Assembly (NCBI RefSeq): GCF_041248615.1
Contig: NZ_CP158426.1
Length of the DNA stretch: 64,000 nt
From: Escherichia coli
GTDB taxonomy: Bacteria > Pseudomonadota > Gammaproteobacteria > Enterobacterales > Enterobacteriaceae
Direction: 5' to 3' (one strand)
Positions 26,642 through 57,697 of the stretch are shown here, piece by piece. Numbering within the stretch: the first letter of the stretch is position 1; the number at the start of each line of letters is the position of its first letter. The notes below the pieces were generated by a model. That model was not told the origin of the DNA and did no database searches. It was given only the letters and a program-made list of their open reading frames with translations. A program made the position numbers and the translations under genes.

Positions 26642-28642
26642 TCATCCTTGTTGCTGAAGCATGGGGAATAATTGTTCGCAAAGCAAAACACCGTTATTCA
26701 TTGCTTCTACCCGTGCCTCGCTTTCTGTATTACGAAATTGTGCCAACACATGTGCCAGCCGATAAAAACCGACCGCGGTGAGGTCATTCGCCAGCAACTC
26801 TGCCTGACCAATAGCACTCTGTTCCTGATAGCGCCAGCCGTTATGGAGCAGTTGAATAAGTAATGCCTGGCAGCGCATCAGCAACTGATGAGCGGTAGAC
26901 GGCACAGGCAAAACGCTGGCAGAAGGTAGCGGAGCCACAGGCGCAGTTTCTGCGTCCAGCGCCCAGGCGCGGGTTTTTGTCATCATCACCCGTGGTTCCA
27001 GTGTCAATTGCCCCTCTACAAAGCTGACAAAGCCAGAAACCAGACTCACGGGGTCGTCTGTTTGTTGCAACAGAGCTGCCATGCGTTCAACGGCAAAAGG
27101 AGAACAGGCAGATGCTGGAAGGGATAATGTCAGCACATTATCTTCCCCTTCGCCGCTAATGACCTGCGCATCCAGTGTCTGGCGGCTGCTATCCCAACCG
27201 AGCGAAATACACTCCGCTACCGGCAGAATAAATAAGTTATCGACCTGGTTGAGTGGTCGTATGCAGGCGGGGGGACGCTGGCGTAAATATTCCCGCAAAG
27301 CCACAATGCCCGGCTGGCGCAATGGCGCGCTCAACATTTGCCAGGCGTCTGGCGACAGCGGCACAACACTACTCAAGCGGTTGCGGGTAGCTAACAACAG
27401 CTCGCCATCGGCACTGCGTTTTGCTGCTTGTGAAACAATTTGCCCACCTGCCAGTGCGCCAGCCTGAAAACTAAATAGCCGACGTTTTGCCGCGGGAGCG
27501 TTTTCTTGTTCGCTTCTCGGCCAACTACGCGAAAGGTGCAAAATACTGCCGGTGTCGGGATCGGTGAACCAGATGCGTAAACCATACTGCTCAATATCCT
27601 GCCAGCAACGCATACCTAAAGACACCAGCCGCAGATGATCAAGCTTTGCTTCTCCGGCAATGCCAGCGCCAACGACCGTGCGCCACGGCACATGAGGAAC
27701 TTCACCAACACTGTCGCGCCGGGCCATCTCTTGTGCGCAATTTAATCGACTGTTTAATGCCGCAAGCTGACGTAAGCATTCCCCGGCATGATAGTGACTG
27801 GCGCGGGCGTGGAAGGCATCAACGCTGGCGCGCAGTTGCCGTAGCGATTCACTTACCCAGCGCCAGTTGCAGCGTTCCGCCGCTTGCTGCGCGCGGCTGA
27901 AAGCGGCCTCGTAGTGAATAAGCGGCTGGCTGATGCCGCCCAGCCATAATGCCTGGCTTAGTTGCTGAACATATTGACGACACGCGTTGCCCTTTTCGCT
28001 GGCAAACGGATCGTCAGATGATGTGACGTGTTCGCTGCGCATCTGCCAGATTAAATGAGTAAATTCCGCTTGCTGAGTTTTGGCCTCGAGGAAGGCCTGC
28101 ACAGCCAGTACGACATGTTCGCAAAGTGTGCCGTCAATACAATCACAACGGGCGAAACGAATACTGCTGCGGGAATAAAAACGCACATCGCTCATCGGTA
28201 AGCGGGCAGAGGGAATTTCGCCCGGCGTACAGAACAACTCAATGGTGATGCCTTTAGCGACCAGAGCCTGTGCGCGTTTGCGGGTGGCATCGGGAAGGGT
28301 AGCCAGTTCTTCCAGCCAGATTGCCGGATCCCATTCCTCTTCTTTTCCCGTAGGCTGGGCGGTAGCACAAAGTCGTTGATAACTTAACACCAGCATCACG
28401 CGATGACGGCACATGCCGCTGGCCCCGCAGGTGCACTGAGCCTCTTTCAGTGCCTGACCGTTCGCCAGCTGGGTACGGACACCGTCACTGAAGGTGGCGA
28501 TTAAAGCGCCGTTCTCATGGCTGATTTCCGGGACGTTGCCATTTTCCAGTTCCTTAAGGCTGCGCTTAACAAAACCGGCATTGCTTAACGCCGTCAGTGC
28601 CTGTGGTGTCAGTTCTAATAATTCCGGACGTAGTGAATTCAT
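26642..28642 (-). CDS. yehQ: SWIM zinc-finger protein, last gene of the MoxR/vWA operon
   Basis: two CxCx5CxH SWIM motifs (CTCGASGMCRH; CDCIDGTLCEH); start set at MNSLRPELLELT so that the ATG overlaps the yehP stop (ATGA coupling). Confidence 0.75.
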   Translation of the reverse strand: MNSLRPELLELTPQALTALSNAGFVKRSLKELENGNVPEISHENGALIATFSDGVRTQLANGQALKEAQCTCGASGMCRHRVMLVLSYQRLCATAQPTGKEEEWDPAIWLEELATLPDATRKRAQALVAKGITIELFCTPGEIPSARLPMSDVRFYSRSSIRFARCDCIDGTLCEHVVLAVQAFLEAKTQQAEFTHLIWQMRSEHVTSSDDPFASEKGNACRQYVQQLSQALWLGGISQPLIHYEAAFSRAQQAAERCNWRWVSESLRQLRASVDAFHARASHYHAGECLRQLAALNSRLNCAQEMARRDSVGEVPHVPWRTVVGAGIAGEAKLDHLRLVSLGMRCWQDIEQYGLRIWFTDPDTGSILHLSRSWPRSEQENAPAAKRRLFSFQAGALAGGQIVSQAAKRSADGELLLATRNRLSSVVPLSPDAWQMLSAPLRQPGIVALREYLRQRPPACIRPLNQVDNLFILPVAECISLGWDSSRQTLDAQVISGEGEDNVLTLSLPASACSPFAVERMAALLQQTDDPVSLVSGFVSFVEGQLTLEPRVMMTKTRAWALDAETAPVAPLPSASVLPVPSTAHQLLMRCQALLIQLLHNGWRYQEQSAIGQAELLANDLTAVGFYRLAHVLAQFRNTESEARVEAMNNGVLLCEQLFPMLQQQG

Positions 28643-29775
28643 GACTGAAGATTCTCCGCAAGCCATGATGCCAGCTCGCCCGGCGTCATGGCGGCTATTT
28701 GTGCGCCGACATTAACCAGCGCCTGGGCCGTATCGCGGTCATAGCAAGGCGTTGCTGTGCTATCGAGCGCTGCCAGTCCCAGCACTTTGATGCCGCTCTG
28801 GACACACTTTTTCACCTGATGCGTCAGCAATGATGATGAACCCCCTTCGTAAAAATCGCTCACGAGGATAATGACGCTTTTTGCAGGTTGTTCAATAAGT
28901 TGCCGACCATACTCCATGGCACTGGCGATATTGGTTCCGCCGCCTAATTGCACTTTCATTAATAACTCTACCGGATCGGCAACGTCGGCGGTGAGATCGA
29001 CGACGCTGGTGTCAAACGCCACCAGATGGGTACGAATGCCGGGTAACTGCCATAAACAGGCCGCCATCACCGCAGAGTGGATCACCGAGTCAACCATCGA
29101 TCCGCTTTGATCAACCAGTAAGACCAGTTGCCATTGATCGCTATGGCGCTTAATGCGGCTGTTAAAGCGGGGGGATTCGATATACAACTTGCCGTGTTGC
29201 GGATGCCAGTGTTGCAGGTTGGCACGCAGGGTACTTTTGAAATCGAAATTACGCGCCAGTGGAATAAATGAGCGGCGACGGCGATCGCGGACACCAGAAA
29301 AAGCCTGGCGAACGTCCTTTGCCAGTCGAGCCATAATTTCTTCAACAACCTGGCGTACTATCCGGCGGGCGGCAGCCAGTACTTCGGGATTCATCAGATG
29401 TTTGGTGTGCAAAACGGCGCGTAGCAGGCTTTCAGAAGGCTGCATACGTTCCAGCACGTCGAGATTCGTCACCACATCTTCAATGCCGTAGCGCAGTACG
29501 GCATCGCTTTCCAGCCGCTCAATCACCTGTTGCGGAAACAGCGTGTGAATACTGTTGATCCACTCAGGGGTGGTGAGATTTGAGCAACCTAATCCACCGG
29601 AGCGTTCACCACGCTGGAGCCGTTCAGGATCGCGCCCATACAGCCACTCCAGCGCGTGGTCTATCTGCCGGGCATTGTCATCCAGCCCACAAAGGGTCGT
29701 TTCTGCCGCTTCGCCAAGAATTAATCGCCAGCGTTGTAGCTCACGGGTGGTCAGAAGATCGTTCAGTTCAGACAT
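28639..29775 (-). CDS. yehP: von Willebrand factor A (vWA) domain protein with MIDAS motif
   Basis: start set at MSELNDLLTTRELQRW giving 378 aa; MIDAS DxSxS (LVDQSGSM); start overlaps the yehM stop by 8 nt. Confidence 0.85.
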   Translation of the reverse strand: MSELNDLLTTRELQRWRLILGEAAETTLCGLDDNARQIDHALEWLYGRDPERLQRGERSGGLGCSNLTTPEWINSIHTLFPQQVIERLESDAVLRYGIEDVVTNLDVLERMQPSESLLRAVLHTKHLMNPEVLAAARRIVRQVVEEIMARLAKDVRQAFSGVRDRRRRSFIPLARNFDFKSTLRANLQHWHPQHGKLYIESPRFNSRIKRHSDQWQLVLLVDQSGSMVDSVIHSAVMAACLWQLPGIRTHLVAFDTSVVDLTADVADPVELLMKVQLGGGTNIASAMEYGRQLIEQPAKSVIILVSDFYEGGSSSLLTHQVKKCVQSGIKVLGLAALDSTATPCYDRDTAQALVNVGAQIAAMTPGELASWLAENLQS

Positions 29776-32047
29776 GGAAAACTCCCCAGTGTTGCAGCGA
29801 TGCCAGTGCCTGCTGTTCGAGTTGTTGATGATGTGCAATGGCTTGCGGTGGACAATGCAACGGCATTTGCAGCGCTGAAACGGGAAGCTGTGCGAGCTGG
29901 TAATGCTCAAGCACCTGATGCGCCAGCGTCCCGCGTTCTCGTGGTGGTAGCCAGGCCATCGCCGCGCTTAAATCGGGCAGGGCGTTAATAAAATCGTCGT
30001 CACTCAGTTGATTTAAATGACTACTGAAACCGGCGATAAATGCCGGCTGACAGGCTAGTTGATGGCGGGCCAGCGCCAGCAAACCGTGCAGCGCTTCGCC
30101 GGATTGTGCCGGGGATAATTGCGCCAGCATTGTCAGCGCCGCTTCGGCACTGGCGTTGGGATGTTCCAGACGCATTAGTGCGCCAAGAGCCGCGCCGCGA
30201 TCCAGCGCCGGGGCATGAATCGCCTGACTGCGGCGCTCCAGTAAGGCTACCGCCGCAGAAAGCGAAACGCCGGATAAATTAACGCCGCTATGTAGATCGC
30301 GCAGGATATGGCAAAGCGCTTGCCAGCTATGCAGGTGAGCGTGAAACTCCTTTTCATCCGGTCTGCCGTTGGATTCACACAGCCACAGCGTGCGATCGAT
30401 AGCCGCGCATAACGTCGTCTGTAATATCTGCGCACCTTGCATACCGCTAATTTCATCCAGCCGCCATAAGGCATATAGCACTTCCAGCGCCGGGCCCATT
30501 TCGGCAAATTGATTTTCCTGGGCGATTAATAATGTGAGTTGCTCCAGTAATTGTTGACTGAAGGACGCCAGACCCGCTAACGCCGCCTGGCTAAGACATG
30601 TGGTGATGCAGCCGATTCCACCCGCGTCCAGCATATCGGCTTCTAATTTATGGCGTGCGGCTTCCTGGAGTGTTGCACCAAAGCAGGCGGCCTCAATCAA
30701 TGCCGCATGTTGGCTAAGCGGGCGGGTTAATTTCCAGCGTTCTTCACCGTTGCCTGCAAGTGTCAGTGTACTTCCCTGCTGGCGCACAACCCCTGGGATC
30801 TCCAGTATTACCAGCCGATGTAACACCTGACTTTGCGCCAGTCCATTGGAGTTAAAGCGATTTAAGGTAAGCTCCGCCGGAAGAGAGATTGCGGTACGTT
30901 CCAGTTCGCAGGTGACATCTTTTGGCAGAGGCGGTTGTGGCGTAGAAGGGGCAAGTTTACCGAATACGTCACCCGCTAATGTGTCTATCAACGTTAGCAG
31001 AATCGGATCGGTATCGGGATGAATAACGCCGCGATAGCTCCACGGCAACGGCGCATTCAGGGCTTCTTTAATCAGCGATCCTGCTATGGCATCCAGCCAG
31101 TCAGTGCGTAACGGTAGTGTATGACCGCGCAACTGTGCCAGTGCCATCGCATGCAGATGAGCGGCAGCCATATCCGCGGTCGAAGCAGGCAACTTGTGCT
31201 GGCGCAAACGGGTGAGAACCGTTTTTAGCAGTTGTTCTCCCGCCTGCTGTAAGCCCCACTGCCAGCACCAGTTTTGCCAGACCGGGGCAGGCATTCCTGA
31301 AAGGTATCCTGCCAGCACATCAAGGCGCTTTTCACTGTAGGGGGTGAGATAACAACCTGTAACGGCATCATCCAGTAAGAGCAATTCTGGCGTGTTAATT
31401 ACCTGCAGACATTCGCGCCACATTTTTGCCAGTGCCGGAGCGTGCCAGCCACCGCAGACAACTAACACGTCGCCATTATTTTGCTGCATCGCCCATCCAA
31501 TCCAGCGGGCCATAAAGGCTTCGCGCTGACGATTGAGAGCATCTCCGGGGGAGTCGCCCCGCAGTTGGGCAAAATAGTGCGCAAGTGCAGAGGGTAATGC
31601 AGTTTGCTGGCTTTCATCTTCGAACAAGTGATCCCACAGGGTGTCGCTGTTATCCATGCGGGTGGCACGCAGCAGCAAGGTCTGGCTTTCCTCTTGCGTA
31701 TCAGGCGAATCGTCCTCTTCTTCACTCTGCGCCCAGCAAGGCAAATCGATGAAGTAAGTTTGTGCCTGAATACGACGAGCGGCTTGTAGCGCCTGCCACT
31801 CCGGCGAAAATTCAGCAAATGGCGTCCAGGCACCACGCCCGGGGGCCGCACCGTCCTGATACTGGCAATAACTGTAAATAGCTACCGGAAGCTGGTGAGC
31901 TAACAACAGTTCGTCTACCCGGTCATTAAAATCAGCCGGGCCTTCAATCAACACGTATCGTGGCCGCTGGCTTTCGATTAACGATTTCACCAGCCGGGCG
32001 CAGGCCGGACTATGATGCCGGATGCCGACAATTAACGGCTCGCTCAT
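29768..32047 (-). CDS. yehM: uncharacterized 759-aa protein of the MoxR/vWA operon
   Basis: start set at MSEPLIVGIRHHSPACARL; no motif I can assign; 10-nt gap to yehL. Confidence 0.8.
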   Translation of the reverse strand: MSEPLIVGIRHHSPACARLVKSLIESQRPRYVLIEGPADFNDRVDELLLAHQLPVAIYSYCQYQDGAAPGRGAWTPFAEFSPEWQALQAARRIQAQTYFIDLPCWAQSEEEDDSPDTQEESQTLLLRATRMDNSDTLWDHLFEDESQQTALPSALAHYFAQLRGDSPGDALNRQREAFMARWIGWAMQQNNGDVLVVCGGWHAPALAKMWRECLQVINTPELLLLDDAVTGCYLTPYSEKRLDVLAGYLSGMPAPVWQNWCWQWGLQQAGEQLLKTVLTRLRQHKLPASTADMAAAHLHAMALAQLRGHTLPLRTDWLDAIAGSLIKEALNAPLPWSYRGVIHPDTDPILLTLIDTLAGDVFGKLAPSTPQPPLPKDVTCELERTAISLPAELTLNRFNSNGLAQSQVLHRLVILEIPGVVRQQGSTLTLAGNGEERWKLTRPLSQHAALIEAACFGATLQEAARHKLEADMLDAGGIGCITTCLSQAALAGLASFSQQLLEQLTLLIAQENQFAEMGPALEVLYALWRLDEISGMQGAQILQTTLCAAIDRTLWLCESNGRPDEKEFHAHLHSWQALCHILRDLHSGVNLSGVSLSAAVALLERRSQAIHAPALDRGAALGALMRLEHPNASAEAALTMLAQLSPAQSGEALHGLLALARHQLACQPAFIAGFSSHLNQLSDDDFINALPDLSAAMAWLPPRERGTLAHQVLEHYQLAQLPVSALQMPLHCPPQAIAHHQQLEQQALASLQHWGVFHV

Positions 32048-32057
32048 GCATCTTTCC

Positions 32058-33146
32058 TCACGGCAGGCGGTGGCGAGCTTGATAATAAGCCTGCCAGTGA
32101 GCTTCTTTATGTGTGGCGACGCGCTGTTCGAAGTAACGGCGCAGACGCGCGCGATCTTCTTCGTTATCTTTAACGATGGTTCCGGCAATACAGTCCACCA
32201 GGTCGGCAGGCTCCCCCGCGCGATTCGCTAAAAACCAGGCGCGGACGCCCACTGCGTGGGCCACGTTCACGGCTTCAGCGGTGGACATAATTGCCGTCAG
32301 GGTATCCATTGACGTTTTCTTTTCGCCGTTGGCACGCAGATCGCGGAAGGTGCGGACCAGTAACTCCAGTACCGCGTCAGGCACTTTATGCGGAATACCG
32401 CTATGGGCCAGCAAACGCGCCGAAGCACTGGCGACCAGTTCCAGCTCCTGGGCGAAATCCATAATCGGAAAGACGGTTTCAAAATCGAAGCGACGCTTTA
32501 GCGCGGCACTCATCTCATTGACGCCGCGATCGCGGGTATTGGCAGTGGCAATAATATTAAAGCCTTCCCGCGCATAGAGCTGACTGGCTTCACCGGTGAG
32601 TTCCGGCACCGTCATCACCCTGTCAGAAAGCATACCTAACAGACAGTCTTGTACTTCCAGCGGTGTACGTGTTATCTCTTCAAAACGGACGATTTTGCCG
32701 TCGCGCATTCCCTGGTAAAGCGGGGCAGGGACCAGTGCTTCCGTTGACGGACCATGGTTGATAAGCAGGGCGTAGTTCCAGCCGTACTTGATTTGATCTT
32801 CAGTAGTAGATGCGCCGCCCTGGATGGTTAACCCGGCATCGCCGCTAATAGCGGTTGCCAGTAATTCAGACAGGAGAGATTTTGCGGTGCCAGGTTCCCC
32901 CACCAACATCAAACCGCGCCCGGTGGCAAGAGTGACTAACATACGTTCGACAGCGGAGGGACTAATCACCACTTTACGGCTAATATTTTGCGCTCTATCG
33001 CCAAGGATAAAAGCACGGGCCGCAGGCAAACTTAACTGCCAACCGGGCGGGCAAGGTGCGTTATCATTTTGTTTTAATTTTGCCAGTTCATCGGCGTATA
33101 ACACAGCAGCAGGCGGACGCTGCAGATGATTATTCTGCGGTGACAT
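32058..33146 (-). CDS. yehL: MoxR-type AAA+ ATPase
   Basis: start set at MSPQNNHLQRPP giving 362 aa; Walker A LVGEPGTAKS; AAA+ sensor regions. Confidence 0.85.
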   Translation of the reverse strand: MSPQNNHLQRPPAAVLYADELAKLKQNDNAPCPPGWQLSLPAARAFILGDRAQNISRKVVISPSAVERMLVTLATGRGLMLVGEPGTAKSLLSELLATAISGDAGLTIQGGASTTEDQIKYGWNYALLINHGPSTEALVPAPLYQGMRDGKIVRFEEITRTPLEVQDCLLGMLSDRVMTVPELTGEASQLYAREGFNIIATANTRDRGVNEMSAALKRRFDFETVFPIMDFAQELELVASASARLLAHSGIPHKVPDAVLELLVRTFRDLRANGEKKTSMDTLTAIMSTAEAVNVAHAVGVRAWFLANRAGEPADLVDCIAGTIVKDNEEDRARLRRYFEQRVATHKEAHWQAYYQARHRLP

Positions 33147-33576
33147 ATATTCATCCCTGAAATGTATTAATGAAATAAACGATATTTTACGCGCAATAAA
33201 TGTTTGGCGCATTAGTTGTTTGAGCGAAAAATATCTGGAAAGCAGATCACAGTAAATAAAAAAACCTGCTGGTGAGGCAGGTTCTTTTATTTACTACAGT
33301 GACGCTAACTTGCTGATTGTGCAACATTTCGTACCAACGAATAAATTATAACCATATCCACACTCCATTGCAATTCAGTGAATGAGATTTATAATCCTGC
33401 CCGTTGGGAGGTTGTGCCGGATCGGACCAATTTTAAGTCCTGGCTGCTGGACGGGTGGTGCCGCAGGCGGTGCCCTGATCCGGAGAGCAACGTTTCGTAC
33501 CAACATACGTAAACCAGTATCGACAGGCAGTGTAAGGGTAAGGTGCTGGTGTTGCGCTCCTTAATAAGGAGAGCGG

Positions 33577-33666
33577 ATGGACACGCTGACACAAAAGTTA
33601 ACCGTGCTCATTGCTGTACTGGAGCTATTAGTGGCTCTGTTACGGTTGATTGATTTGTTGAAGTAA
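33577..33666 (+). CDS. candidate 29-aa hydrophobic peptide (type I toxin-like, DinQ-like composition); unannotated
   Basis: ATG with AAGGAG Shine-Dalgarno 5 nt upstream; translation MDTLTQKLTVLIAVLELLVALLRLIDLLK; SD lies in a CTCCT/AGGAG hairpin; terminator-like hairpin follows; below the ORF-track cutoff. Confidence 0.4.
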   Translation: MDTLTQKLTVLIAVLELLVALLRLIDLLK

Positions 33667-33687
33667 CGGGCAAATTGAAACGCATCT

Positions 33688-33719
33688 AAGGGGGAATACC
33701 GTTTCCCCCTTTAATAAAG
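33688..33719. terminator. hairpin terminator shared by the small ORF (+) and yehK (-)
   Basis: AAGGGGGAA-taccgtt-TCCCCCTT followed by TAATAAA. Confidence 0.5.
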
Positions 33720-34025
33720 CTATTTTTCTATTTGTTGGTTGAATATATTTTGTAGTTCGCGATTAAAAATTGCTATTACAGTTTCAGGTGATTCACCTCG
33801 TAATTTTCGCTCATCAATAAACTCATCTCTTATATAAATCAACGCATCATTTATTAGCGGGTCAGCATCATTAAATGTTGGACGTAGCCGGAATCGTTCC
33901 AGTCGATAGACGGAACCTGTAAATAATTCAGAGCGTTTATGGATCTCAAGCCTGAAGGAAAACGGCTCTTCAGGTACAGGGGCCTCATAATCGTAAATAG
34001 TGATCAGCTCTTTTTGCACGATCAT
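33720..34025 (-). CDS. yehK: uncharacterized small protein
   Basis: 101-aa ORF directly downstream of yehI on the same strand; matches recalled YehK. Confidence 0.7.
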   Translation of the reverse strand: MIVQKELITIYDYEAPVPEEPFSFRLEIHKRSELFTGSVYRLERFRLRPTFNDADPLINDALIYIRDEFIDERKLRGESPETVIAIFNRELQNIFNQQIEK

Positions 34026-34085
34026 CGCTTTTCCCGGTGGCAGGTCGTGTTAATAACGAGCAGTCGCATCACTGCCCGCTGTGTT

Positions 34086-37000
34086 TTAATGGAAAATGAC
34101 GTCGGGTGCGCTTAACGCCTCACTCAAATCAAACACATCAAGTTCGGCAAAAGTGACGGATTTATTCTCACGGTATACATGAAGAGAACGGAAGCTCATT
34201 AGCGCTTTGCTATCAACATTGTAGTGGTTAAAACCGGATGAAAACTTAAGGACCAGCCGGTACTCGCCCAAGTCATAGACAAATGCGTTCTCATAGCCTG
34301 ACTCCCAGCCTTTGTATCGCAATCCCATAAGTTGCCCAACGGTAGCAGATTTACCTTCCCAGCGATTCAAACTATTACTGGCTGACTCGTCAGGCGTGAG
34401 CAGCACCGTGCGGCGCGACAATTGGCGAAAAGGCGACATAATTTCGTAATCGGCAAAAAGCTGTGCAAATTCACTGCGCATTTCTGCTGTCATTTCTAAC
34501 GGGTGGGCAATGCCAATCAGAGCATCGGCAGGCAGGTCAATTGGCTCATCTTGCTCATTGCAGAACTCCCCCTCAGCGGCCACACGAAAGGCGTTGAGTA
34601 AACAACGCGGTTCATTTGCCGGATAAACACCCCATATCAATCGCTGAGTAACCAGGCGGGTAAAGGGATGATTAATAAACAGAGAATGAAAATCTGCCAG
34701 CGACCAGCGTCGGGTGGTGCGCAGGGCAGTTTCAAGACGCGGGAGCAGGTTTTTGCTCACCTGAGTAGCATCTTTTTTTAGCCCTTTTAGTCGGGCCAGT
34801 GCCTCGGGTGCTTTCAGTTGATCGTCATCGGCGCGCAACCGGGGAACGCTTTTCTGGCGAACGTTTTGCTGATCAAAGATAACCGGGTTGAGGTTTTCAT
34901 CGAAGCGAACGGTAAATTGCCGTGGACCAAAATCAAAAATCAACGCCTGCGGATCATCAAGACCCAGTGTTGGGACTAATCTGTCCGCTAACTGTTCCTG
35001 GCTTAGCCCGCGATTTTCTGCGACCACCTGAAGAAATTCCGCCGCGTTATCACGTAAGGGGCGGGATTTCGCCCGTTGCGATATATGATGCAGCTGCATC
35101 AGCGCCATATCATTATTCATCAGGGTAAGGATGTTCAGGCCACTGACAGCACGGGCAGATTTGCCTTCTTGTGGCCAGGCGAGGATCTGTGTCGTTAGAT
35201 CCCGTGTCGTGCTTTCGTCACCAAAGAGACTTAACGCCAGAAATGCCCAGTTGTCTTTTGCGGGGGCACCAGCTTGTTGCCACGCAGTGAAGAGATCCCA
35301 GGCAAAAGCTGCCAGCGTTTGTGGCTGGCAGAACGTTTTCAGTTGTTCCAGCCCGCTATAAAAACGTCCGCCTTGGGTAAAGCGCAGCATTTCGCCGATA
35401 ATTTCCAGAGCGTCATCGGTAACAGGCTGATTATTTGTGATAAGGCGCGGCCTGGACCGCATTTGCGGCTGCCAGAAATCAGGGGCTTTTGGAATGCGTG
35501 TCGGGTAAATCTCTATTGGACTCTGTTTAAGTAATTGCTCCAGGGCAGGCCATACATCTGTACGCTGCCAGCGGTTTGCCACGGTTTGCAGTAACTCGCC
35601 ATGTCCCTGTTCGTAAAGTAAACGCAGGGCAAGTAATGCAGCTTCGCTATTATCGCTGGATTTGGTGAAGACAAGAGGGATAAGTGCAGTAGCTGTATGT
35701 TCCGGCCAATGTAAAATCCACTGGCGAGCCAGATCACGCTGCGCCGCGAAACGTCGCCAGACGCGGGCAACGGGCAGGGCCAGTTCTGTTGCGCCAAAAT
35801 TTAAAATTAACGGAAATGTTTCTTTTGGACGATGTGAAAAAGCCAACAGCAGACCTGGTAGAGCATCCAATCCGAAGATACTGAGAAAATAGTCCTCACC
35901 CGCAGACAGATGCTTTTTCTCATTGATACGTAGCCAGAAAGTCAAAGCCATCTCACGCGGCAACTGCGCCAATAAATACAGGTTCCAGATACTCTTTTCC
36001 CGACGATAGCGTGAGTAGCTGTCATTTTCCCATATGTTAATGAACACTTCTACGTGACCGTTGCGAAGCGCCTGTTCTGCTAATTGAGCTTCCGGGGAGC
36101 TCCAGCCATTCATGATCTCTTCAACCCGCCCTGGGTAGTAATGCCACTGAACAATGAGTGAATTGCGTGCAGCATCCAGTTTTCCGGGGAGTATATAATT
36201 CAAAAACAGCCATACATCATCTCCAAAACCCAGCTCCTGTAATACAACTCGTCCACTTTTTTGTTCCATGCGTTCCGCAAGAGATTCCGTGCTGAAATAA
36301 CGGGCAGACTCAGTGGCGGCAAGCCTCTCTTGTTCGCCTGGTTGCCAGTAAACTTGCGGGGTTAATTCGAGCGGTGCCAAATCAAGACGTGGAGCTGTCA
36401 TTTTTTTCTTACTACGCCACGGTGGTGAAACGAGGATTTCAGGCAGATTGCTGTTATCGGTGCCATCAATAACCGGTTTGGGCGGTGCCGATAAATAACT
36501 ATTCAGCACTGCCCGGGCTTGAGTACTTAACCACGGCATCACTTCTGCTGCCAGTTGTGGCTGCGATGCCATCAGCGTTTGTAACAGCGTACGCCAGTAT
36601 TCATCACGTGCTTTTTGCTGTGCAGGCAGCTTTTTGTCTTCGATGATTGGATAACCAGGGCGCGTAGGTGGTTCTTTTAGCGCCAGCAGTTCTGCCAGTG
36701 CGGCAAGCGTCGCATGGGGGAAATTTTTACTGTATTTAGCTACACGTTGCAGGCTGGGTTTGTTTTTATCAGCAACTAACAGCAGGGTGCGGATGACCTG
36801 CGGATGGTTAATTTGTACCAGCAGACTGCCGCAATCTTCTTTATGGGCATACATTGCCAGGCGTGGAACGGCTGCCAGTCCTTGTTCGCGCAAAAGGGCA
36901 GCGCAGGCCGCGTAGCCGAAGTGGTTTTCATGCGACATGTAGCTGGCTTCCCGATCGCTAAATATATCCTGGCTCCAGTAGCGTTCGAGTTTTCTCACCG

Positions 37001-37718
37001 CTCTGGGGTCAATAGCAACAACTTTTAACCACTCCTTAGAATGAAAATGAGTCCACGGGCATTCAAGGCTTACCAACTCATTGGCGATTTCTGGTTTTTC
37101 CGGGAGGATCAGAGCAATAAAAGGGCGGCGAACTTTGGTTATTCCTGGCAGTGCGGCAATGAGTTTGTCGGCGCAACGCTGCCAGCTGCTTTCCTCTGCC
37201 AGAGAGAGATGCTTACGCAGTCGGAGATCGAATTCGTTATAGGTTTCTGATCGATAACCATAGCCATAATCCTCGTTCTGATACTGCAATGTCACTAGCA
37301 GAGGATCACTTTCATAACATCGTGTAATAAACTGGCGTGCAATCACCACCTCAGTCGCATATTCCAGTCCCTCTTGTTGGACGATTTCGTCGAGCAACTG
37401 TTGGCTATCATTTTGCGCGATACAGGCTAGCGCCGCCATTGTCCGGGCCGGAACTGAGGGTTTGTGTTCGCCAATCAAGTTGATGGCCTGCGTAATGGCC
37501 GACTGCCACTCCAGTGAAAAATTATCATAACGCCAGACAATGTTTTTTTTCTTCTCAGCTTTTTGTAGCAATTCATCACCCAGTGTCTGGATGAGGCTTT
37601 CAGTGATAACAGGCACCGGTTCGCCCGGCCAACTGCGATGGCTGAGCGGCGTTTTGCCTTTTTTATATTTCAGTTCCACTTGGGCGTTATCCGCCAGCCA
37701 CGGTAATTCCTTGTCCAT
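34086..37718 (-). CDS. yehI: 1210-aa DUF4132-family protein, paralog of MolR
   Basis: long ORF; C-terminal region clearly paralogous to the next gene (FAWDLFTAWQ.AGAP.K..WAF; LFADYE...PFRQL). Confidence 0.85.
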   Translation of the reverse strand: MDKELPWLADNAQVELKYKKGKTPLSHRSWPGEPVPVITESLIQTLGDELLQKAEKKKNIVWRYDNFSLEWQSAITQAINLIGEHKPSVPARTMAALACIAQNDSQQLLDEIVQQEGLEYATEVVIARQFITRCYESDPLLVTLQYQNEDYGYGYRSETYNEFDLRLRKHLSLAEESSWQRCADKLIAALPGITKVRRPFIALILPEKPEIANELVSLECPWTHFHSKEWLKVVAIDPRAVRKLERYWSQDIFSDREASYMSHENHFGYAACAALLREQGLAAVPRLAMYAHKEDCGSLLVQINHPQVIRTLLLVADKNKPSLQRVAKYSKNFPHATLAALAELLALKEPPTRPGYPIIEDKKLPAQQKARDEYWRTLLQTLMASQPQLAAEVMPWLSTQARAVLNSYLSAPPKPVIDGTDNSNLPEILVSPPWRSKKKMTAPRLDLAPLELTPQVYWQPGEQERLAATESARYFSTESLAERMEQKSGRVVLQELGFGDDVWLFLNYILPGKLDAARNSLIVQWHYYPGRVEEIMNGWSSPEAQLAEQALRNGHVEVFINIWENDSYSRYRREKSIWNLYLLAQLPREMALTFWLRINEKKHLSAGEDYFLSIFGLDALPGLLLAFSHRPKETFPLILNFGATELALPVARVWRRFAAQRDLARQWILHWPEHTATALIPLVFTKSSDNSEAALLALRLLYEQGHGELLQTVANRWQRTDVWPALEQLLKQSPIEIYPTRIPKAPDFWQPQMRSRPRLITNNQPVTDDALEIIGEMLRFTQGGRFYSGLEQLKTFCQPQTLAAFAWDLFTAWQQAGAPAKDNWAFLALSLFGDESTTRDLTTQILAWPQEGKSARAVSGLNILTLMNNDMALMQLHHISQRAKSRPLRDNAAEFLQVVAENRGLSQEQLADRLVPTLGLDDPQALIFDFGPRQFTVRFDENLNPVIFDQQNVRQKSVPRLRADDDQLKAPEALARLKGLKKDATQVSKNLLPRLETALRTTRRWSLADFHSLFINHPFTRLVTQRLIWGVYPANEPRCLLNAFRVAAEGEFCNEQDEPIDLPADALIGIAHPLEMTAEMRSEFAQLFADYEIMSPFRQLSRRTVLLTPDESASNSLNRWEGKSATVGQLMGLRYKGWESGYENAFVYDLGEYRLVLKFSSGFNHYNVDSKALMSFRSLHVYRENKSVTFAELDVFDLSEALSAPDVIFH

Positions 37719-37727
37719 GCTCTTTCC

Positions 37728-40700
37728 TTATTCAAACAGGGCTTCAATATCGTTAATGAGTTCGCTGGCGGTGATGTCGTCGAGCACGGAGAACTGCGCT
37801 TCCTGAGTTGAATTACTCCCCCAGCCATAGCTTTCCGCTTTGCCTTCCCATAGCCACAGCTTGCTTAAGACCTGCTCAGCGCTAAGATCGGCTGGTGACA
37901 TACCCACCGCAAAACCTTCGTCGATTTCCATGATTAACGACCAGCGACCGAGAGGTTTGATCATCCATCCGATCCAGCCTCCATCCTGTGGTTCGCCCTT
38001 TATCCAGCCTTTATTTGCCAGCCCCATGACCCGGCCGCTCGGGCATTTTCTGCCTGCCCAGCGGGTCAGTTCGCTGGCGTTGCGCTCGGCTTCTGTCAGG
38101 GCGTAACTGTTACGTTCAAGCTGACGGAACGGTGGTAGCAGTTCGTAGTCGGCAAAAAGCTGACCAAAGGCGACAGCATCCGTCGGTGATATTTCCAGAA
38201 CGTGAGGAATGCCGATAGAGATATCGCCTTCCTGCAAGGTGAAAAGATCATCGTCAGCGGTGCTGTAGCTGTTATCTTCCGCCACCCTAAAGCACGCCTG
38301 TAGCTGGTTTTCGGCGCTATAAACGCCCCAAATCAGACGGCGGGTTAAGTGACGAACCAGCGGATGCTCAACCAGGAAGAGCTGAAAGTTTTCCGGCGAC
38401 CAGCGGCGGCGCAGGCACATGGCGGATTCCAGCCTTGCTACCTGCTGGGCGGCGACGGTACGCGCATCTTTTTTCAGCAATTTGTAGCGGTTAACAGCAT
38501 CGTTTGCCTGTGATTCATCATCGCTTTTATTGGGTTTAGGTAAGTCTTTCAGGCGGCTGCCGGAAACATCGCGCACAAACGGTTTTAAGGTTTCATCAAA
38601 GCTGACGGTGAACTGCCGTGGGCCAAAATCCAGCAGCAGCGAACCGTTATCATCCAGACCGAGATCCGGTGCTAACCGGTCTTCAAGCTCCGGCACCGTG
38701 AGTTCGCGGCTCTCGGCAATGTCGGCAATTTTCTCTTTCGCCCGCTCCTGTAAGGCTTTGAATTTCAGTTTCTGGGCGATGCCGTTAAGCTGCATCAGGG
38801 CGATATCGCTGCCGATAGCGGCGAGAATATCCAACCCAACGGTGGCACGTTTATGCTGAGATTCGCCAGGCCAGGCGCGGATTAATGGCGTCAGTTTGCG
38901 GGCGGTGTCATCGTTACCGAGAACGCCTAACGCAGTGAACGCCCAACTTTCTTTCGACGGCGCGCCAGCGGTCTGCCAGGCGGTAAACAGATCCCAGGCA
39001 AATTCAGCCAGTGAGTCGGCGGTACAGGCATCTTTCACCTGCAATAATCCCGGATACAGCGCCTCCTCCTGATGGAAGCGGAGCATTTCACCGAGGTGGA
39101 GGAGGGCGCTATCTGGCAGTGATTGGGCATTTGCTTTTAATACCGGGCGGGTCCAGATCGATGGCTGATAAAAGGCCGGAAGAGTGGGGATTTTTGTCGG
39201 GTGATTATCTAAGGGATCGAGCGCAAGCATAGCGTTCACCGCATCTGTTACTTCCGGCTGGTTATAACGCCGGGCGATTTCTTGCAGTAATGGCTGATGA
39301 TCGTTTTCGATAAGCATACGCAAGGCAGCGCGGGCGTTATCCTGGGCTTCACCGGCTTTGCCGAGCGCCGCAGGCAGTAGGCCGGTAATGGCGTGTTCCG
39401 GGTATTTCAGCAGCCAGGTGCGGGCGTCTTGTCGTAGGGTTTTGAGTTTGTTGAAGGCGCGGGCGATCAGTGGCGCTAATTCGATAGCCGCAAAATATTG
39501 TGCTACAGGCAGAGCTTCTTGTGGATAGCGTGAAAAGGAGTGAATAAAACCCTGTAACCCAGCGAGTTGCAGGTGCGTCATGACAAACTCGACACCGACG
39601 TGTGGCTCTTTACTGAGGACATTCCACGCCTGCGCTGTTTTTTCGATAGGCAGGGCGGCTAACATGTAAAGCTGCCATTCCCGTTGATAGGAGTGCCAGA
39701 AGGTTTTAAATTCGCTGATTAGCGCAGAATAATCTCCCCTCTGCCAGAGTTCTACAACAGCATCAGACGCTTTCATATACTGGCCATTATTCCAGCGATT
39801 GAAACCCAGACGTGTCAGGTAGTTCTGAATATCCTCTTTTTGGCCGATGTCTATTTGATGTGCGTGCCAGCGATGCCTTGCATGAATCTCTTTTTCTGCC
39901 GTCTCGGTCAATGTGCAGCATGACTCCAGCGGTAATGGCGTTAAATCCAATACCGGCATTACAGATTTTTTCTTTTTCGAAAGCCAGGGCGGTGAGACTA
40001 ATACGGCAGGCAGCATATCGGCGCTGGCATGGTTTGAGGGCTGTGTCAGTTGTTGCTGGCATGATTTCAGCACTGCAACTGCGGGTGTTGAGAGCCAGGG
40101 AGTGACCTGTTCTGCTAGTGCCGGTTGCGAGATAAGCATCGTCATCAGCATAATGCGCCAACTATTCTCTTCTTTTTGCGCAAGAAGTTCCGCCAGTGCA
40201 GCCAGTGCTGCGTGTGGGAACGCAGCGCAAGCCTTAGTCATTCGTTCATGGCAGCGTTTAGTTTTGCCAGACACACGTATAAGTAGCATTAATGCTTGTG
40301 GGTGATTGATCTCTTCGAGAATACTTCCACAAAGATCAGCATAAGCATAGGGGGCGAAGCGAGCGATTCCGGCAATCCCTTGCTCCTGCAAAACGGTGAC
40401 ATTCCAGATGCAACCATGGTAATAGTCATTAAAAAGGTCGTACGCGCAATAAGATTCCAGCGCTTTGAGTAAGAAAGATTCTTGAACAACAAGTTTCAGC
40501 CATTCAACAGTTTGGACATTTTTCTGCTTCAGTAACCGTCGTGCGACTTCTTCTGCAATCTCCGGGCGTTCCGGTAGCATTAGCGCTACCATCGGTTGTT
40601 GAACGGGAGGAATATCAGGTAAAGCTGTAATGAATTTATCTACACAGCGTTGCCACAAAGTTTCTTCTGCAAGAGCCAAATGCTTACGCAGTCGAACGTC

Positions 40701-41477
40701 AAAGGGGGTAACACAATGTGCATGGTTTAATAATGGCTGAAAAGTAATGTGTATGCTTGTTCTGTGATAAGTGCAATCGAACGAGATATATTGCATGGCA
40801 ATAAACATATCCACGGCAAATTCTAGTCCGTAGACATAGACAATTTCATCCATGAGTTCAGGGCATTCGCCCCAGAATTTACGTGAAACCAGAACAACCT
40901 GTACAGCCAACGCAGCAGGAGAAAGTGGACCATTAGCGAGAGCTTCATTGATATTCTGCTGCCAGTTAGCAGAACATGCACTGAAATCGTATGTTGTTAT
41001 TTTTCCTGATAGATTATGAATATCCTGACCTAAATTCATAAGGAGGCTGTCTTGTGGTTCGCTTACAGCATCCCCAGGAAAACGTCGGGAAGGTAAGGCC
41101 TCCTGAGACTTTTTCTCCGATAGATGGATAGGGGAATCATCTGTCAGCCACGGGCATGGTGTCTCAGCAGGTTCAACAACCATACTTTGGTCAAATACGA
41201 CTGTGGTTTCTGCCACGCCAGTTGTATCTACTTCGATCGTTTCTATTTTGATTGCGGGTTGGGATGGCGAAGATAATTCTTCCACATACCCCTTCTTCAC
41301 CTTCTCCGCAATCAGCTTCAGTTCCGCTTTTTCCGCCGCCGCAGCATCTGCAAAGCTTTTTACCTGACTTTGCCCGTTAGTGCCGACTTTACCCCAGTTA
41401 ATATGCAGCTCGTTTCCCTGCTGCTCCACCGCCCAGAATTTATGTGATTTTTCGTCCTGATAGATAAAGTGTTTCAT
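37728..41477 (-). CDS. molR: 1249-aa WGR-domain plus DUF4132 protein (intact MolR/YehH)
   Basis: N-terminal WGR motif (KFWAVEQQGNELHINWGKVGTNGQ); C-terminal DUF4132 region paralogous to yehI; single uninterrupted ORF. Confidence 0.85.
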   Translation of the reverse strand: MKHFIYQDEKSHKFWAVEQQGNELHINWGKVGTNGQSQVKSFADAAAAEKAELKLIAEKVKKGYVEELSSPSQPAIKIETIEVDTTGVAETTVVFDQSMVVEPAETPCPWLTDDSPIHLSEKKSQEALPSRRFPGDAVSEPQDSLLMNLGQDIHNLSGKITTYDFSACSANWQQNINEALANGPLSPAALAVQVVLVSRKFWGECPELMDEIVYVYGLEFAVDMFIAMQYISFDCTYHRTSIHITFQPLLNHAHCVTPFDVRLRKHLALAEETLWQRCVDKFITALPDIPPVQQPMVALMLPERPEIAEEVARRLLKQKNVQTVEWLKLVVQESFLLKALESYCAYDLFNDYYHGCIWNVTVLQEQGIAGIARFAPYAYADLCGSILEEINHPQALMLLIRVSGKTKRCHERMTKACAAFPHAALAALAELLAQKEENSWRIMLMTMLISQPALAEQVTPWLSTPAVAVLKSCQQQLTQPSNHASADMLPAVLVSPPWLSKKKKSVMPVLDLTPLPLESCCTLTETAEKEIHARHRWHAHQIDIGQKEDIQNYLTRLGFNRWNNGQYMKASDAVVELWQRGDYSALISEFKTFWHSYQREWQLYMLAALPIEKTAQAWNVLSKEPHVGVEFVMTHLQLAGLQGFIHSFSRYPQEALPVAQYFAAIELAPLIARAFNKLKTLRQDARTWLLKYPEHAITGLLPAALGKAGEAQDNARAALRMLIENDHQPLLQEIARRYNQPEVTDAVNAMLALDPLDNHPTKIPTLPAFYQPSIWTRPVLKANAQSLPDSALLHLGEMLRFHQEEALYPGLLQVKDACTADSLAEFAWDLFTAWQTAGAPSKESWAFTALGVLGNDDTARKLTPLIRAWPGESQHKRATVGLDILAAIGSDIALMQLNGIAQKLKFKALQERAKEKIADIAESRELTVPELEDRLAPDLGLDDNGSLLLDFGPRQFTVSFDETLKPFVRDVSGSRLKDLPKPNKSDDESQANDAVNRYKLLKKDARTVAAQQVARLESAMCLRRRWSPENFQLFLVEHPLVRHLTRRLIWGVYSAENQLQACFRVAEDNSYSTADDDLFTLQEGDISIGIPHVLEISPTDAVAFGQLFADYELLPPFRQLERNSYALTEAERNASELTRWAGRKCPSGRVMGLANKGWIKGEPQDGGWIGWMIKPLGRWSLIMEIDEGFAVGMSPADLSAEQVLSKLWLWEGKAESYGWGSNSTQEAQFSVLDDITASELINDIEALFE

Positions 41478-41577
41478 TCTGCATCCCTGTAATTTTATCC
41501 AGTTGAATGCTGATGCTACCAGTATTTATGCGGGTTAGAGAGAGACAAAATCGCAAGAAAACAAATTTAGGAATTTA

Positions 41578-41607
41578 TAAAGAAAAGGCGCTGTCGATGC
41601 AGCGCCT
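41578..41607 (-). terminator. rho-independent terminator of metG
   Basis: minus-strand hairpin AAGGCGCTG-catcga-CAGCGCCTT followed by TTCTTT. Confidence 0.6.
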
Positions 41608-52430: not shown

Positions 52431-52519
52431 TTTATTAACGCTATTGTAAAACTGCCGTTTTTCCTCGTTTACAACGCGTGCGCTGGACATTACCATCCTC
52501 CTCTGCGATTTATCATCGC

Positions 52520-57691: not shown

Positions 57692-57697
57692 AACTGC

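What the first reader, a model, noticed from the sequence alone, without database searches (positions are those of the whole stretch)
26642..33146. Translationally coupled MoxR AAA+ / unknown / vWA-MIDAS / double-SWIM operon (yehLMPQ) of unknown function
Four same-strand genes with 10-nt, 8-nt-overlap and ATGA-overlap junctions: an AAA+ MoxR ATPase (Walker A GEPGTAKS), a 759-aa protein with no recognizable motif, a vWA protein with an intact MIDAS (DQSGSM), and a protein with two CxCx5CxH SWIM zinc fingers. MoxR-vWA pairs act as ATP-driven remodelling or sensor modules, and the SWIM fingers suggest nucleic-acid or protein targeting. No function is established to my knowledge. Together with the adjacent giant paralogs it forms a 15-kb block; it lies near the centre of the window.
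Basis: partly seen in the sequence, partly recalled or inferred. Interest (0 to 1): 0.7.

Follow-up and report, generated by a model that had tools for sequence, protein, structure and literature searches.

The report
Damage-linked MoxR–vWA remodelling gene cluster
The four genes are the real but uncharacterised E. coli yehLMPQ operon, and comparison with other bacteria shows they are part of a larger conserved gene set related to a radiation-induced Deinococcus operon, so they most likely build an ATP-driven machine that acts on damaged DNA or proteins bound to it.

Summary
The window is E. coli chromosome, and the coordinates, junctions and motifs of yehL, yehM, yehP and yehQ are exactly as described. 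The locus matches in 5415 of 5426 complete E. coli genomes.

1. The conserved unit has five gene families, not four. In 80 loci from Proteobacteria, Myxococcales and Actinobacteria, one to five DUF4132 genes (often WGR-fused, like the upstream molR-like gene and yehI) accompany L-M-P-Q. In Sinorhizobium the DUF4132 gene lies inside the operon.
2. The "motif-less" YehM (DUF5682) has an N-terminal TraB/ChaN/erythromycin-esterase-like fold with invariant His, Glu and Arg residues, followed by a HEAT-like scaffold. It occurs naturally fused to YehP.
3. YehQ carries one invariant SWIM finger, a second dispensable one, and a tandem OB-like domain resembling RPA70 and HIN DNA binders.
4. YehL, YehM and YehP are homologues of DdrV, DdrW and DdrX of the Deinococcus ddrTUVWX operon, which is reported to be induced more than 10-fold by radiation. 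E. coli molR is listed in the LexA regulon.

No defence-system model matches, and the genes are almost absent from plasmids and phages.

Best reading (confidence about 0.4): a DNA-damage-associated, Midasin-like AAA+/MIDAS remodelling complex. It is a new variant of a known kind, with moderately high interest.

The parts
37728..41477 (-). Intact molR-like gene (1249 aa). It has an N-terminal WGR domain (aa 7-67, nt 41277-41459), a long helical middle region, and a DUF4132 domain (aa 973-1158, nt 38004-38561).
   Evidence: Pfam gives WGR 8e-18 and DUF4132 3.7e-51. A profile of 20 homologues matches the PARP3 WGR domain at 1.7e-4 and PDB 2ra8 at 3e-23. It is co-conserved with L-M-P-Q. In K-12 it is split into yehF plus the yehH pseudogene.
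41487..41502 (.). LexA-box-like palindrome CTGGATAAAATTACAG (one mismatch to CTGT-N8-ACAG), 10 nt upstream of the molR-like start codon.
   Evidence: Sequence read, and identical in K-12. molR is listed among LexA-regulated genes with a known SOS box in PMC6590174. The sequence alone is near chance level (26 one-mismatch matches against 17.6 expected), and the box is not conserved in 79 other loci.
34086..37718 (-). yehI (1210 aa), a second DUF4132 paralog without a recognisable WGR domain.
   Evidence: RefSeq annotation. It is 38% identical to the molR-like protein in alignment A6. DUF4132 genes occur in 1 to 3 copies per locus in the domain-level count, and up to 5 in one locus in the gene-order listing.
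33720..34025 (-). yehK-like small ORF (101 aa). It is probably not part of the conserved system.
   Evidence: No family hit in PADLOC or NCBIfam. No homologue was found in any of the 80 related loci.
32058..33146 (-). yehL, a MoxR-type AAA+ ATPase of the AAA_5 (dynein/midasin-related) family. Walker A lies at nt 32877-32900.
   Evidence: Pfam AAA_5 2.6e-34. The best solved-structure sequence matches are Midasin AAA modules, at 7.7e-10. Walker A, a VRFEE Walker B, the IATANTRD sensor and the ALKRRF arginine finger are conserved at 95% or more in 79 homologues.
29768..32047 (-). yehM (DUF5682). Residues 1-245 (nt 31313-32047) form a TraB/ChaN/HopBA1/erythromycin-esterase-like domain. Residues from about 255 to 759 form a HEAT/ARM-like helical scaffold.
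28639..29775 (-). yehP, a VWA_CoxE-type von Willebrand A protein with a complete MIDAS (DQSGS at nt 29098-29112, then GGGT, then DFxEG).
   Evidence: Pfam VWA_CoxE 4.3e-71. All MIDAS positions are conserved at 95% or more in 76 homologues.
28902..28917 (-). +1 ribosomal frameshift cassette inside yehP (ATGGAGTATGGTCGGC here, GTGGAG... in K-12).
   Evidence: Found. Frameshifting at this site was shown with reporters and mass spectrometry in PMC2790909. Its role is unknown.
26642..28642 (-). yehQ. It has SWIM finger 1 (ligands at nt 28403-28435), SWIM finger 2 (nt 28115-28147), helical bundles, a beta-rich tandem OB-like region (aa 331-560, nt 26963-27652), and C-terminal helices.

Best explanation
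yehLMPQ and the upstream DUF4132/WGR genes (molR-like, yehI) encode one multi-subunit, ATP-driven remodelling machine that works on damaged DNA or on proteins bound to it.

Proposed roles:
- YehL forms the AAA+ ring that acts as the motor.
- YehP supplies a MIDAS site that grips an acidic residue of a client protein.
- YehM is a HEAT-like scaffold joined to YehP. Its N-terminal TraB/ChaN/erythromycin-esterase-like domain is a probable metal-dependent hydrolase that processes the captured client.
- YehQ (SWIM plus tandem OB-like domain) and the WGR domain of the MolR-type proteins bring the complex to DNA or to DNA lesions.

The layout is that of eukaryotic Midasin/Rea1 (AAA_5 ring, helical linker, MIDAS) split over separate polypeptides.

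Shown here: the domain identities, the co-conservation, the M-P fusions, and the homology of L, M and P to DdrV, DdrW and DdrX.
Taken from papers: radiation induction of ddrTUVWX, molR in the LexA regulon, and H-NS silencing of yehL and yehM.
Inferred: complex formation, DNA binding, hydrolase activity, and the nature of the client.
For: (1) Co-conservation. In 80 loci that encode a YehM relative, YehL is present in 79, YehP in 77, YehQ in 75 and DUF4132 proteins in about 70. The dominant same-strand order is DUF4132(x1-3)-L-M-P-Q. In Sinorhizobium the order is L-M-DUF4132-P-Q.
(2) Physical coupling. Genes overlap by 4-8 nt, and independent natural M+P fusions exist.
(3) Motor and grip are intact. 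The AAA_5 motifs are conserved in 79 homologues, the MIDAS is complete in 76, and YehL's closest solved relatives by sequence are Midasin AAA modules.
(4) Nucleic-acid modules. The WGR domain matches PARP3 WGR at 1.7e-4 with a family profile. YehQ has an RPA70/HIN-like tandem OB region found by two methods. SWIM finger 1 is invariant.
(6) Link to DNA damage. The D. taeanensis ddrTUVWX locus (identified as such in PMC9510100) encodes an AAA protein 41% identical to YehL (8e-78), a DUF5682 protein 28% identical to YehM (3e-34), and a VWA protein 33% identical to YehP (5e-69). In D. deserti, ddrTUVWX is induced more than 10-fold by radiation, depends on IrrE/DdrO, and is preceded by an RDRM (PMC5552922). 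D. radiodurans DUF4132 (DRA0166) and WGR (DR2173) genes are derepressed when DdrO is depleted (PMC8533742). E. coli molR is listed with a known SOS box (PMC6590174), and the box is present here and in K-12.
Against: - No experiment links yehLMPQ itself to DNA damage.
- In E. coli the operon is separated from molR-yehI by yehK, a terminator and a zor-orz toxin-antitoxin insertion. It appears to be H-NS-silenced from its own upstream region (PMC3686432), so LexA control of molR need not reach it.
- The LexA-like box has one mismatch. Such matches are near chance frequency, and none was found upstream of 79 other loci.
- The Deinococcus operon is a different architecture. It has DUF5691 and a different SWIM protein, and no detectable homology to YehQ or DUF4132.
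- The YehM N-domain resemblance is at fold level only. Pfam and PDB sequence profiles are not significant, and some members of that fold are not enzymes (ChaN binds haem).
- The OB-like matches have low TM-scores (0.26-0.46 on the target) and high rmsd.
Confidence: 0.4

Rival explanations
1. A biological-conflict system: either anti-phage or anti-mobile-element defence, or a damage-triggered suicide module. The DUF4132/WGR paralogs and YehQ would sense foreign or abnormal nucleic acid. The MoxR-vWA pair would then activate the YehM hydrolase as a toxic effector.
For: - The copy number of the large DUF4132 paralogs varies from 1 to 5 per locus, which is typical of diversifying sensors.
- The operon is H-NS-silenced in E. 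coli, as horizontally acquired genes often are.
- A type I toxin-antitoxin pair sits inside the cluster.
- Some type-B loci lie beside toxin-antitoxin genes, IS elements, recombinases, an Imm26 immunity gene or a PDDEXK nuclease.
- Induction by DNA damage would also fit sensing of prophage induction. Prolonged DdrO depletion causes apoptosis-like death in D. radiodurans by unidentified genes (PMC6300522).
Against: - None of the seven proteins hits any of the 5027 PADLOC models.
- The genes are nearly absent from plasmids (38 of 72,556 records, mostly megaplasmids or mislabelled chromosomes) and from phages (1 of 50,697).
- In E. coli the locus is core and sits at a fixed position.
- Flanks are mostly conserved between species of a genus.
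- No recognisable toxin or effector domain of the usual kinds is present.
Confidence: 0.25
2. A generic MoxR-vWA chaperone for a protein client unrelated to DNA, working as an independent four-gene operon in E. coli. The neighbouring DUF4132 genes would be only loosely associated.
For: - yehLMPQ has its own upstream region after a terminator.
- H-NS binds that intergenic region, and yehL and yehM rise in hns/stpA mutants.
- MoxR-vWA pairs are known remodellers of diverse clients. This rests on established knowledge of RavA-ViaA, CbbQ-CbbO and NorQ-NorD.
Against: - The DUF4132 genes are co-conserved and sometimes internal to the operon.
- The gap between the DUF4132 genes and yehL in E. coli is explained by secondary insertions. 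yehK is absent elsewhere, zor-orz is absent from K-12, and other Enterobacterales have gaps of about 20 nt.
- The conserved partners carry nucleic-acid-type domains.
Confidence: 0.15
3. A metal or cofactor insertion system, or enzyme activase, of the CoxD/CoxE, NorQ/NorD, CbbQ/CbbO or CobS/CobT type. The old name of molR, 'molybdate metabolism regulator', would fit this.
For: - YehP belongs to the VWA_CoxE Pfam family.
- YehL gives weak NCBIfam hits to GvpN, and YehP to a cobaltochelatase subunit.
- The YehM N-domain fold includes the haem-binding ChaN.
Against: - No metalloenzyme or chelatase substrate-subunit gene is conserved next to the cluster in 80 loci.
- The D. radiodurans paper notes that molybdenum-cofactor genes did not respond together with the DUF4132 and WGR genes.
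- molR is a pseudogene in K-12, which weakens the old genetic assignment.
Confidence: 0.1

Closest known systems
Deinococcus ddrTUVWX operon (Deide_18730-18690; RDR regulon)
   Same: Both share a MoxR AAA_5 ATPase, a DUF5682 protein and a VWA_CoxE protein in the same order, with 41%, 28% and 33% identity to YehL, YehM and YehP. Both also include a SWIM-finger protein. ddrTUVWX is reported as radiation-induced and IrrE/DdrO-controlled, which parallels the LexA listing of molR.
   Different: In ddrTUVWX the SWIM protein comes first and is followed by a DUF5691 protein, and there is no DUF4132/WGR gene. YehQ shows no detectable full-length homology to DdrT or DdrU. No function is known for ddrTUVWX either.
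Midasin / Rea1 (eukaryotic ribosome-assembly AAA+ with a C-terminal MIDAS)
   Same: Both have AAA_5 modules (the best solved-structure matches of YehL), a long helical linker and a MIDAS domain that grips a client. ATP-driven extraction of a protein from a nucleoprotein particle is the working model for Midasin.
   Different: Midasin is one giant polypeptide with six fused AAA modules. Here the parts are separate genes. They come with an added TraB/ChaN-like domain, a SWIM/OB protein and WGR/DUF4132 proteins. The client is unknown.
CoxD/CoxE, NorQ/NorD, CbbQ/CbbO and RavA/ViaA (bacterial MoxR-vWA pairs)
   Same: These are also MoxR-family ATPases paired and translationally coupled with a vWA/MIDAS protein. 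YehP is in the same Pfam family as CoxE.
   Different: Those pairs sit next to their client enzyme and serve metal-centre maturation or enzyme reactivation. Here there is no client enzyme gene, and there are three further conserved partners (DUF5682, SWIM/OB, DUF4132/WGR).
TIKI / TraB / PrgY / ChaN / erythromycin esterase / RRSP / HopBA1 superfamily
   Different: There is no significant sequence-profile match. The domain is fused to a roughly 500-residue HEAT-like scaffold and embedded in a MoxR-vWA system. Catalysis is untested.
PARP WGR domain and RPA70 / HIN200 tandem OB DNA binders
   Same: The MolR-type N-terminus is a WGR domain. The YehQ beta-region resembles RPA70 DBD-A/B and HIN domains bound to DNA.
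   Different: There is no PARP catalytic domain. The OB-like similarity is structural only, with modest scores. DNA binding is untested.

Membership tests
MoxR / AAA_5 AAA+ ATPase (YehL) | Pfam AAA_5 domain with a Walker A P-loop | tested here: met
   AAA_5 at 2.6e-34. GEPGTAKS is conserved in 79 homologues.
MoxR / AAA_5 AAA+ ATPase (YehL) | Walker B acidic pair, sensor 1 and arginine finger | tested here: met
   VRFEE (Glu-Glu instead of the usual Asp-Glu), IATANTRD and ALKRRF are each conserved at 95% or more. The non-canonical first acidic residue is noted.
MoxR / AAA_5 AAA+ ATPase (YehL) | Hexamer with ATPase activity | not testable with these tools
   Needs biochemistry.
vWA / MIDAS, VWA_CoxE type (YehP) | Pfam VWA_CoxE domain | tested here: met
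   4.3e-71 over the full model length.
vWA / MIDAS, VWA_CoxE type (YehP) | Complete MIDAS (DxSxS ... T ... D) | tested here: met
   DQSGS 222-226, GGGT (T281) and DFxEG (D307) are conserved in 76 homologues.
SWIM zinc finger (YehQ) | CxCxnCxH ligand pattern | tested here: met
   Two copies are present. The first is invariant in 46 of 46 homologues and the second is present in 27 of 46. Pfam E-values are weak, at 1.3e-3 and 0.11.
SWIM zinc finger (YehQ) | Zinc binding | not testable with these tools
   Needs metal analysis.
TIKI/TraB/ChaN/EreA-like superfamily (YehM N-domain) | Shared fold | tested here: met
TIKI/TraB/ChaN/EreA-like superfamily (YehM N-domain) | Significant sequence-profile match to a member family | tested here: not met
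   Only faint Pfam hits: ChaN in 2 of 19 members at about 0.06, and Erythro_esteras in 1 of 19 at 0.03. The PDB profile search found nothing.
TIKI/TraB/ChaN/EreA-like superfamily (YehM N-domain) | Conserved His/Glu(/Arg) constellation at the active site | tested here: inconclusive
   H11, H12, E35, H51, E83, E143, R175, E176 and H202 are invariant or nearly so. Residue-by-residue superposition on a known enzyme could not be done.
ddrTUVWX-type operon | Homologues of DdrV (AAA), DdrW (DUF5682) and DdrX (VWA) in that order | tested here: met
   blastp E-values of 8e-78, 3e-34 and 5e-69 against the D. taeanensis operon.
ddrTUVWX-type operon | DdrT-type SWIM protein and DdrU (DUF5691) | tested here: not met
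   hhalign of YehQ against DdrT-like proteins gives probability 13%. YehQ and the DUF4132 proteins against DUF5691 give below 1%. No DUF5691 gene is annotated in the E. coli cluster.
ddrTUVWX-type operon | Induction by DNA damage | not testable with these tools
   Only the literature listing of molR in the LexA regulon is available. The box is present but weak.
Known anti-phage defence systems (PADLOC-DB 2.0) | Match to a defence-protein model | tested here: not met
   No family matched any of the seven proteins at E <= 0.01.
Known anti-phage defence systems (PADLOC-DB 2.0) | Variable, mobile genomic location | tested here: not met
   It is core in E. coli, rare on plasmids and phages, and has mostly conserved flanks within genera. 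Actinomadura shows at least three different contexts.
CoxD/CoxE-type enzyme maturation systems | Conserved adjacency to a client metalloenzyme gene | tested here: not met
   No such gene appears in the E. coli, Sinorhizobium, Streptomyces, Hymenobacter, Deinococcus or Rhizobium loci.
Midasin/Rea1 | Six AAA_5 modules and a MIDAS in one polypeptide | tested here: not met
   There is a single AAA module per YehL chain, and the MIDAS is on a separate protein. This is resemblance of parts only.

The most novel reading that the evidence does not exclude
A bacterial 'split Midasin' for genome maintenance: a DNA-damage-induced AAA+/MIDAS extraction machine. It would be recruited to lesions by WGR and SWIM/OB modules, pull trapped or crosslinked proteins off DNA, and cleave them with the TIKI-like YehM domain. 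That would make it a prokaryotic counterpart of Cdc48-Wss1/SPRTN-type repair of DNA-protein crosslinks, conserved from E. coli to Deinococcus.
Probability: 0.12. Interest if true: 0.85.

Novelty: new variant of a known kind. Interest (0 to 1): 0.6.

Why it matters
This is a 15-kb cluster of seven genes. It matches in 5415 of 5426 complete E. coli genomes (5202 carry at least 80% of the 7-kb yehLMPQ stretch) and still has no known function.

Tying it to the radiation-induced ddrTUVWX operon and to a LexA-listed gene turns an anonymous MoxR-vWA operon into a concrete, testable candidate for a new DNA-damage-response machine. The work predicts which subunit is the motor, which the grip, which the scaffold and hydrolase, and which the DNA binder.

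It also explains why screens may have missed it. In K-12, the strain used for most genome-wide phenotyping, yehQ is truncated and molR is broken, and the operon is reported to be H-NS-silenced.

Tried and rejected
- PADLOC, NCBIfam and PHROG scans gave no informative names. The PHROG hits are near-identical singletons, probably host DNA in phage records.
- Sequence searches of YehM, YehQ and the YehM N-domain profile against solved structures found nothing.
- Literature searches on the gene names were swamped by author names (Yehl, Yeh P) and gave no functional study.
- A third homologue search with the Hymenobacter DUF5682 protein returned only Hymenobacter relatives and did not reach Deinococcus. 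Deinococcus was reached through the plasmid collection instead.
- Profile-profile tests for homology between YehQ and DdrT-like proteins, YehQ and DUF5691, and DUF4132 proteins and DUF5691 were negative.
- A scan for E. coli-type LexA boxes upstream of the first DUF4132 gene in 79 other loci found none. ORF starts in high-GC genomes are uncertain, and other phyla use other LexA motifs, so this is weak negative evidence.
- I considered that the RDRM-like sequence TTACGCCAGAAACATAA upstream of D. taeanensis ddrT confirms DdrO control. The consensus I compared it with comes from memory, so I do not count it as evidence.

Full report
**1. Observation.**

The window is E. coli chromosome. It is 100% identical over 7 kb to strain NRZ14408.

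The four genes lie on the minus strand exactly at the stated limits:
- yehL 32058-33146
- yehM 29768-32047
- yehP 28639-29775
- yehQ 26642-28642

The junctions are a 10-nt gap, an 8-nt overlap and an ATGA overlap. Walker A (GEPGTAKS), the MIDAS (DQSGS) and two CxCx5CxH SWIM patterns are present.

Pfam results:
- AAA_5, 2.6e-34
- VWA_CoxE, 4.3e-71
- DUF5682, 1.6e-94
- two weak SWIM hits

The 7-kb stretch matches in 5415 of 5426 complete E. coli genomes, and 5202 of them cover at least 80% of it.

**2. The unit is larger than four genes.**

Upstream on the same strand lie:
- an intact molR-like gene (37728-41477) with WGR at 8e-18 and DUF4132 at 3.7e-51;
- yehI (34086-37718), a second DUF4132 paralog;
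- a small yehK-like ORF.

A scan of one genome per species found at least 551 loci that encode a YehM relative. The best 80 were analysed. They come from gamma- and beta-Proteobacteria, Myxococcales and Actinobacteria.

| Partner | Loci with it (of 80) |
|---|---|
| YehL | 79 |
| YehP | 77 |
| YehQ | 75 |
| DUF4132 proteins | about 70 |

The dominant same-strand order is DUF4132(x1-3)-L-M-P-Q. At least one DUF4132 protein carries a WGR domain in 45 of 71 loci. On a Sinorhizobium plasmid the DUF4132 gene sits between M and P. A Streptomyces plasmid shows I-L-M-P-Q with 4-nt overlaps.

In E. coli the gap between yehI and yehL is secondary. yehK has no homologue in the other loci. The spacer also carries a zor-orz type I toxin-antitoxin insertion (Rfam OrzO-P 88.8 bits; a ZorO-like 29-aa ORF). 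K-12 lacks that insertion.

**3. The parts.**

*YehL.* All AAA+ motifs are conserved in 79 homologues, with an unusual Glu-Glu Walker B. Its closest solved relatives by sequence are the AAA modules of Midasin.

*YehP.* It has a complete, conserved MIDAS.

*YehM.*
- The model is confident (pLDDT 91.6).
- The remainder is a HEAT/ARM-like solenoid with symplekin, TAF6 and Vps35 matches.
- R10, H11, E35, H51, E83, D101, W138, E143, R175, E176 and H202 are invariant in 46 homologues of 29-64% identity.
- Sequence profiles do not reach significance against Pfam or the PDB. The assignment is therefore at fold level.
- Independent natural YehM-YehP fusions exist.

*YehQ.*
- The model is confident (pLDDT 91.7).
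- SWIM finger 1 is invariant. Finger 2 is lost as a whole in 19 of 46 homologues.

*MolR-type proteins.* A family profile matches the PARP3 WGR domain at 1.7e-4.

**4. Link to DNA damage.**

A second architecture shares the L-M-P core. It runs SWIM protein, DUF5691, AAA, DUF5682, VWA. It occurs in Deinococcus taeanensis, Rhizobium and Methylosinus. In Hymenobacter the SWIM and DUF5691 parts are fused.

The D. taeanensis locus is explicitly the ddrTUVWX operon (PMC9510100). Its AAA, DUF5682 and VWA proteins match YehL, YehM and YehP at 8e-78, 3e-34 and 5e-69.

Published evidence:
- In D. deserti, ddrTUVWX is among the most strongly radiation-induced genes. Induction depends on IrrE/DdrO, and an RDRM precedes the operon in several species (PMC5552922, PMC2669436, PMC4007540).
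- In D. radiodurans, a DUF4132 gene (DRA0166) and a WGR gene (DR2173) are derepressed when DdrO is depleted (PMC8533742).
- In E. coli, molR is listed among LexA-regulated genes with a known SOS box (PMC6590174).

The box CTGGATAAAATTACAG lies 10 nt upstream of the start codon here and in K-12.

Caveats:
- The box has one mismatch, and such matches are near chance frequency.
- It is not found upstream of 79 other loci.
- yehLMPQ in E. coli appears to have its own H-NS-silenced upstream region (PMC3686432).
- YehQ and the DUF4132 proteins show no detectable homology to DdrT, DdrU or DUF5691.

**5. Mechanism.**

The best-supported model is a Midasin-like machine split into subunits:
- a YehL ring as the motor;
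- the YehP MIDAS as the grip on a client;
- YehM as a scaffold that also carries a probable hydrolase;
- YehQ and the WGR/DUF4132 proteins as DNA- or lesion-targeting subunits.

The domain composition, co-conservation and fusions are shown here. Damage induction of relatives comes from papers. Complex formation, DNA binding, catalysis and the client are inferred. Confidence is about 0.4.

**6. Rivals.**

*Conflict or defence system, about 0.25.* In favour: the variable number of DUF4132 paralogs, H-NS silencing, and toxin-antitoxin, IS or nuclease neighbours in some loci. Against:
- no PADLOC hit;
- near-absence from plasmids and phages;
- core status in E. coli;
- flanks mostly conserved within genera.

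*Generic four-gene chaperone unrelated to DNA, about 0.15.* The co-conservation of the DUF4132 genes argues against it.

*Metal-centre maturation system of the CoxD/E type, about 0.1.* No client enzyme gene is conserved nearby.

**7. Novelty.**

The operon itself is annotated and is known to be uncharacterised. MoxR-vWA pairs are a known kind.

In the searchable literature I found no paper that does any of the following:
- connects yehLMPQ with ddrTUVWX;
- describes the DUF5682 fold;
- describes the OB-like domain of YehQ;
- notes the obligatory DUF4132/WGR partner.

I class it as a new variant of a known kind.

One practical point stands out. K-12 carries a truncated yehQ (614 against 666 codons, a nonsense change) and a broken molR. 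Negative results from K-12 screens therefore say little.

Noticed in passing
window 33258-33331 (-) and 33577-33666 (+): A zor-orz type I toxin-antitoxin pair sits in the yehK-yehL spacer. It consists of an OrzO-P antitoxin RNA (Rfam 88.8 bits) and a 29-aa ZorO-like ORF (MDTLTQKLTVLIAVLELLVALLRLIDLLK) with a strong Shine-Dalgarno. There are divergent promoter-like sites at about 33345-33395 and an 18-nt complementary repeat. K-12 lacks the insertion; its spacer is 306 nt against 573 nt here.
   Followed up: partly
L086 (E. coli K-12 MG1655, 2196474-2210944), compared with window 26642-41477: The K-12 copy of the system is damaged. yehQ ends at codon 614 because of a nonsense change (666 codons here), and the molR-like gene is split into yehF (the WGR part) and the yehH pseudogene. 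Phenotype screens in K-12 may therefore be uninformative.
   Followed up: yes
window 28902-28917 (-), inside yehP: The +1 ribosomal frameshift cassette reported for K-12 yehP (GTGGAGTATGGTCGGC) is present as ATGGAGTATGGTCGGC. Frameshifting there would yield a product shorter by 75 residues, truncating the end of the vWA domain. Its role is unknown.
   Followed up: partly
window about 52500-58000: After a TPP riboswitch and a tyrosine recombinase/integrase gene, the G+C content falls to 31-33% at 54-58 kb. This is probably an integrated island. Two perfect CTGT-N8-ACAG palindromes lie in it, at 54112 and 57312.
   Followed up: no
window 27058-27073, inside yehQ: A perfect LexA-type palindrome, CTGTTTGTTGCAACAG, lies within the yehQ coding sequence. 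It is likely a chance match: 3 perfect matches in the window against 0.7 expected.
   Followed up: no
PHROG families phrog_30700, 33984, 31592, 29006, 36295, 20839: These 'phage' families are essentially identical to the E. coli chromosomal proteins YehM (in two pieces), YehP, YehQ, YehK and YehI. They probably derive from host DNA included in a phage or prophage record. Only one of 50,697 phage records has even a distant YehM match.
   Followed up: partly
metG / DUF4132 / yeh region (window about 34000-41600): According to PMC9334617, a major ST131 sublineage (L1a, 184 isolates) carries the blaCTX-M-15 transposon TnMB1860 inserted in this DUF4132 region. The locus can therefore be disrupted in successful clinical clones.
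   Followed up: no
L085 3741-3757 (Deinococcus taeanensis plasmid, upstream of ddrT): The sequence TTACGCCAGAAACATAA lies between a TACAAT-like -10 element and the ribosome-binding site of the SWIM gene. The consensus was not available in the tools, so this is unverified.
   Followed up: partly
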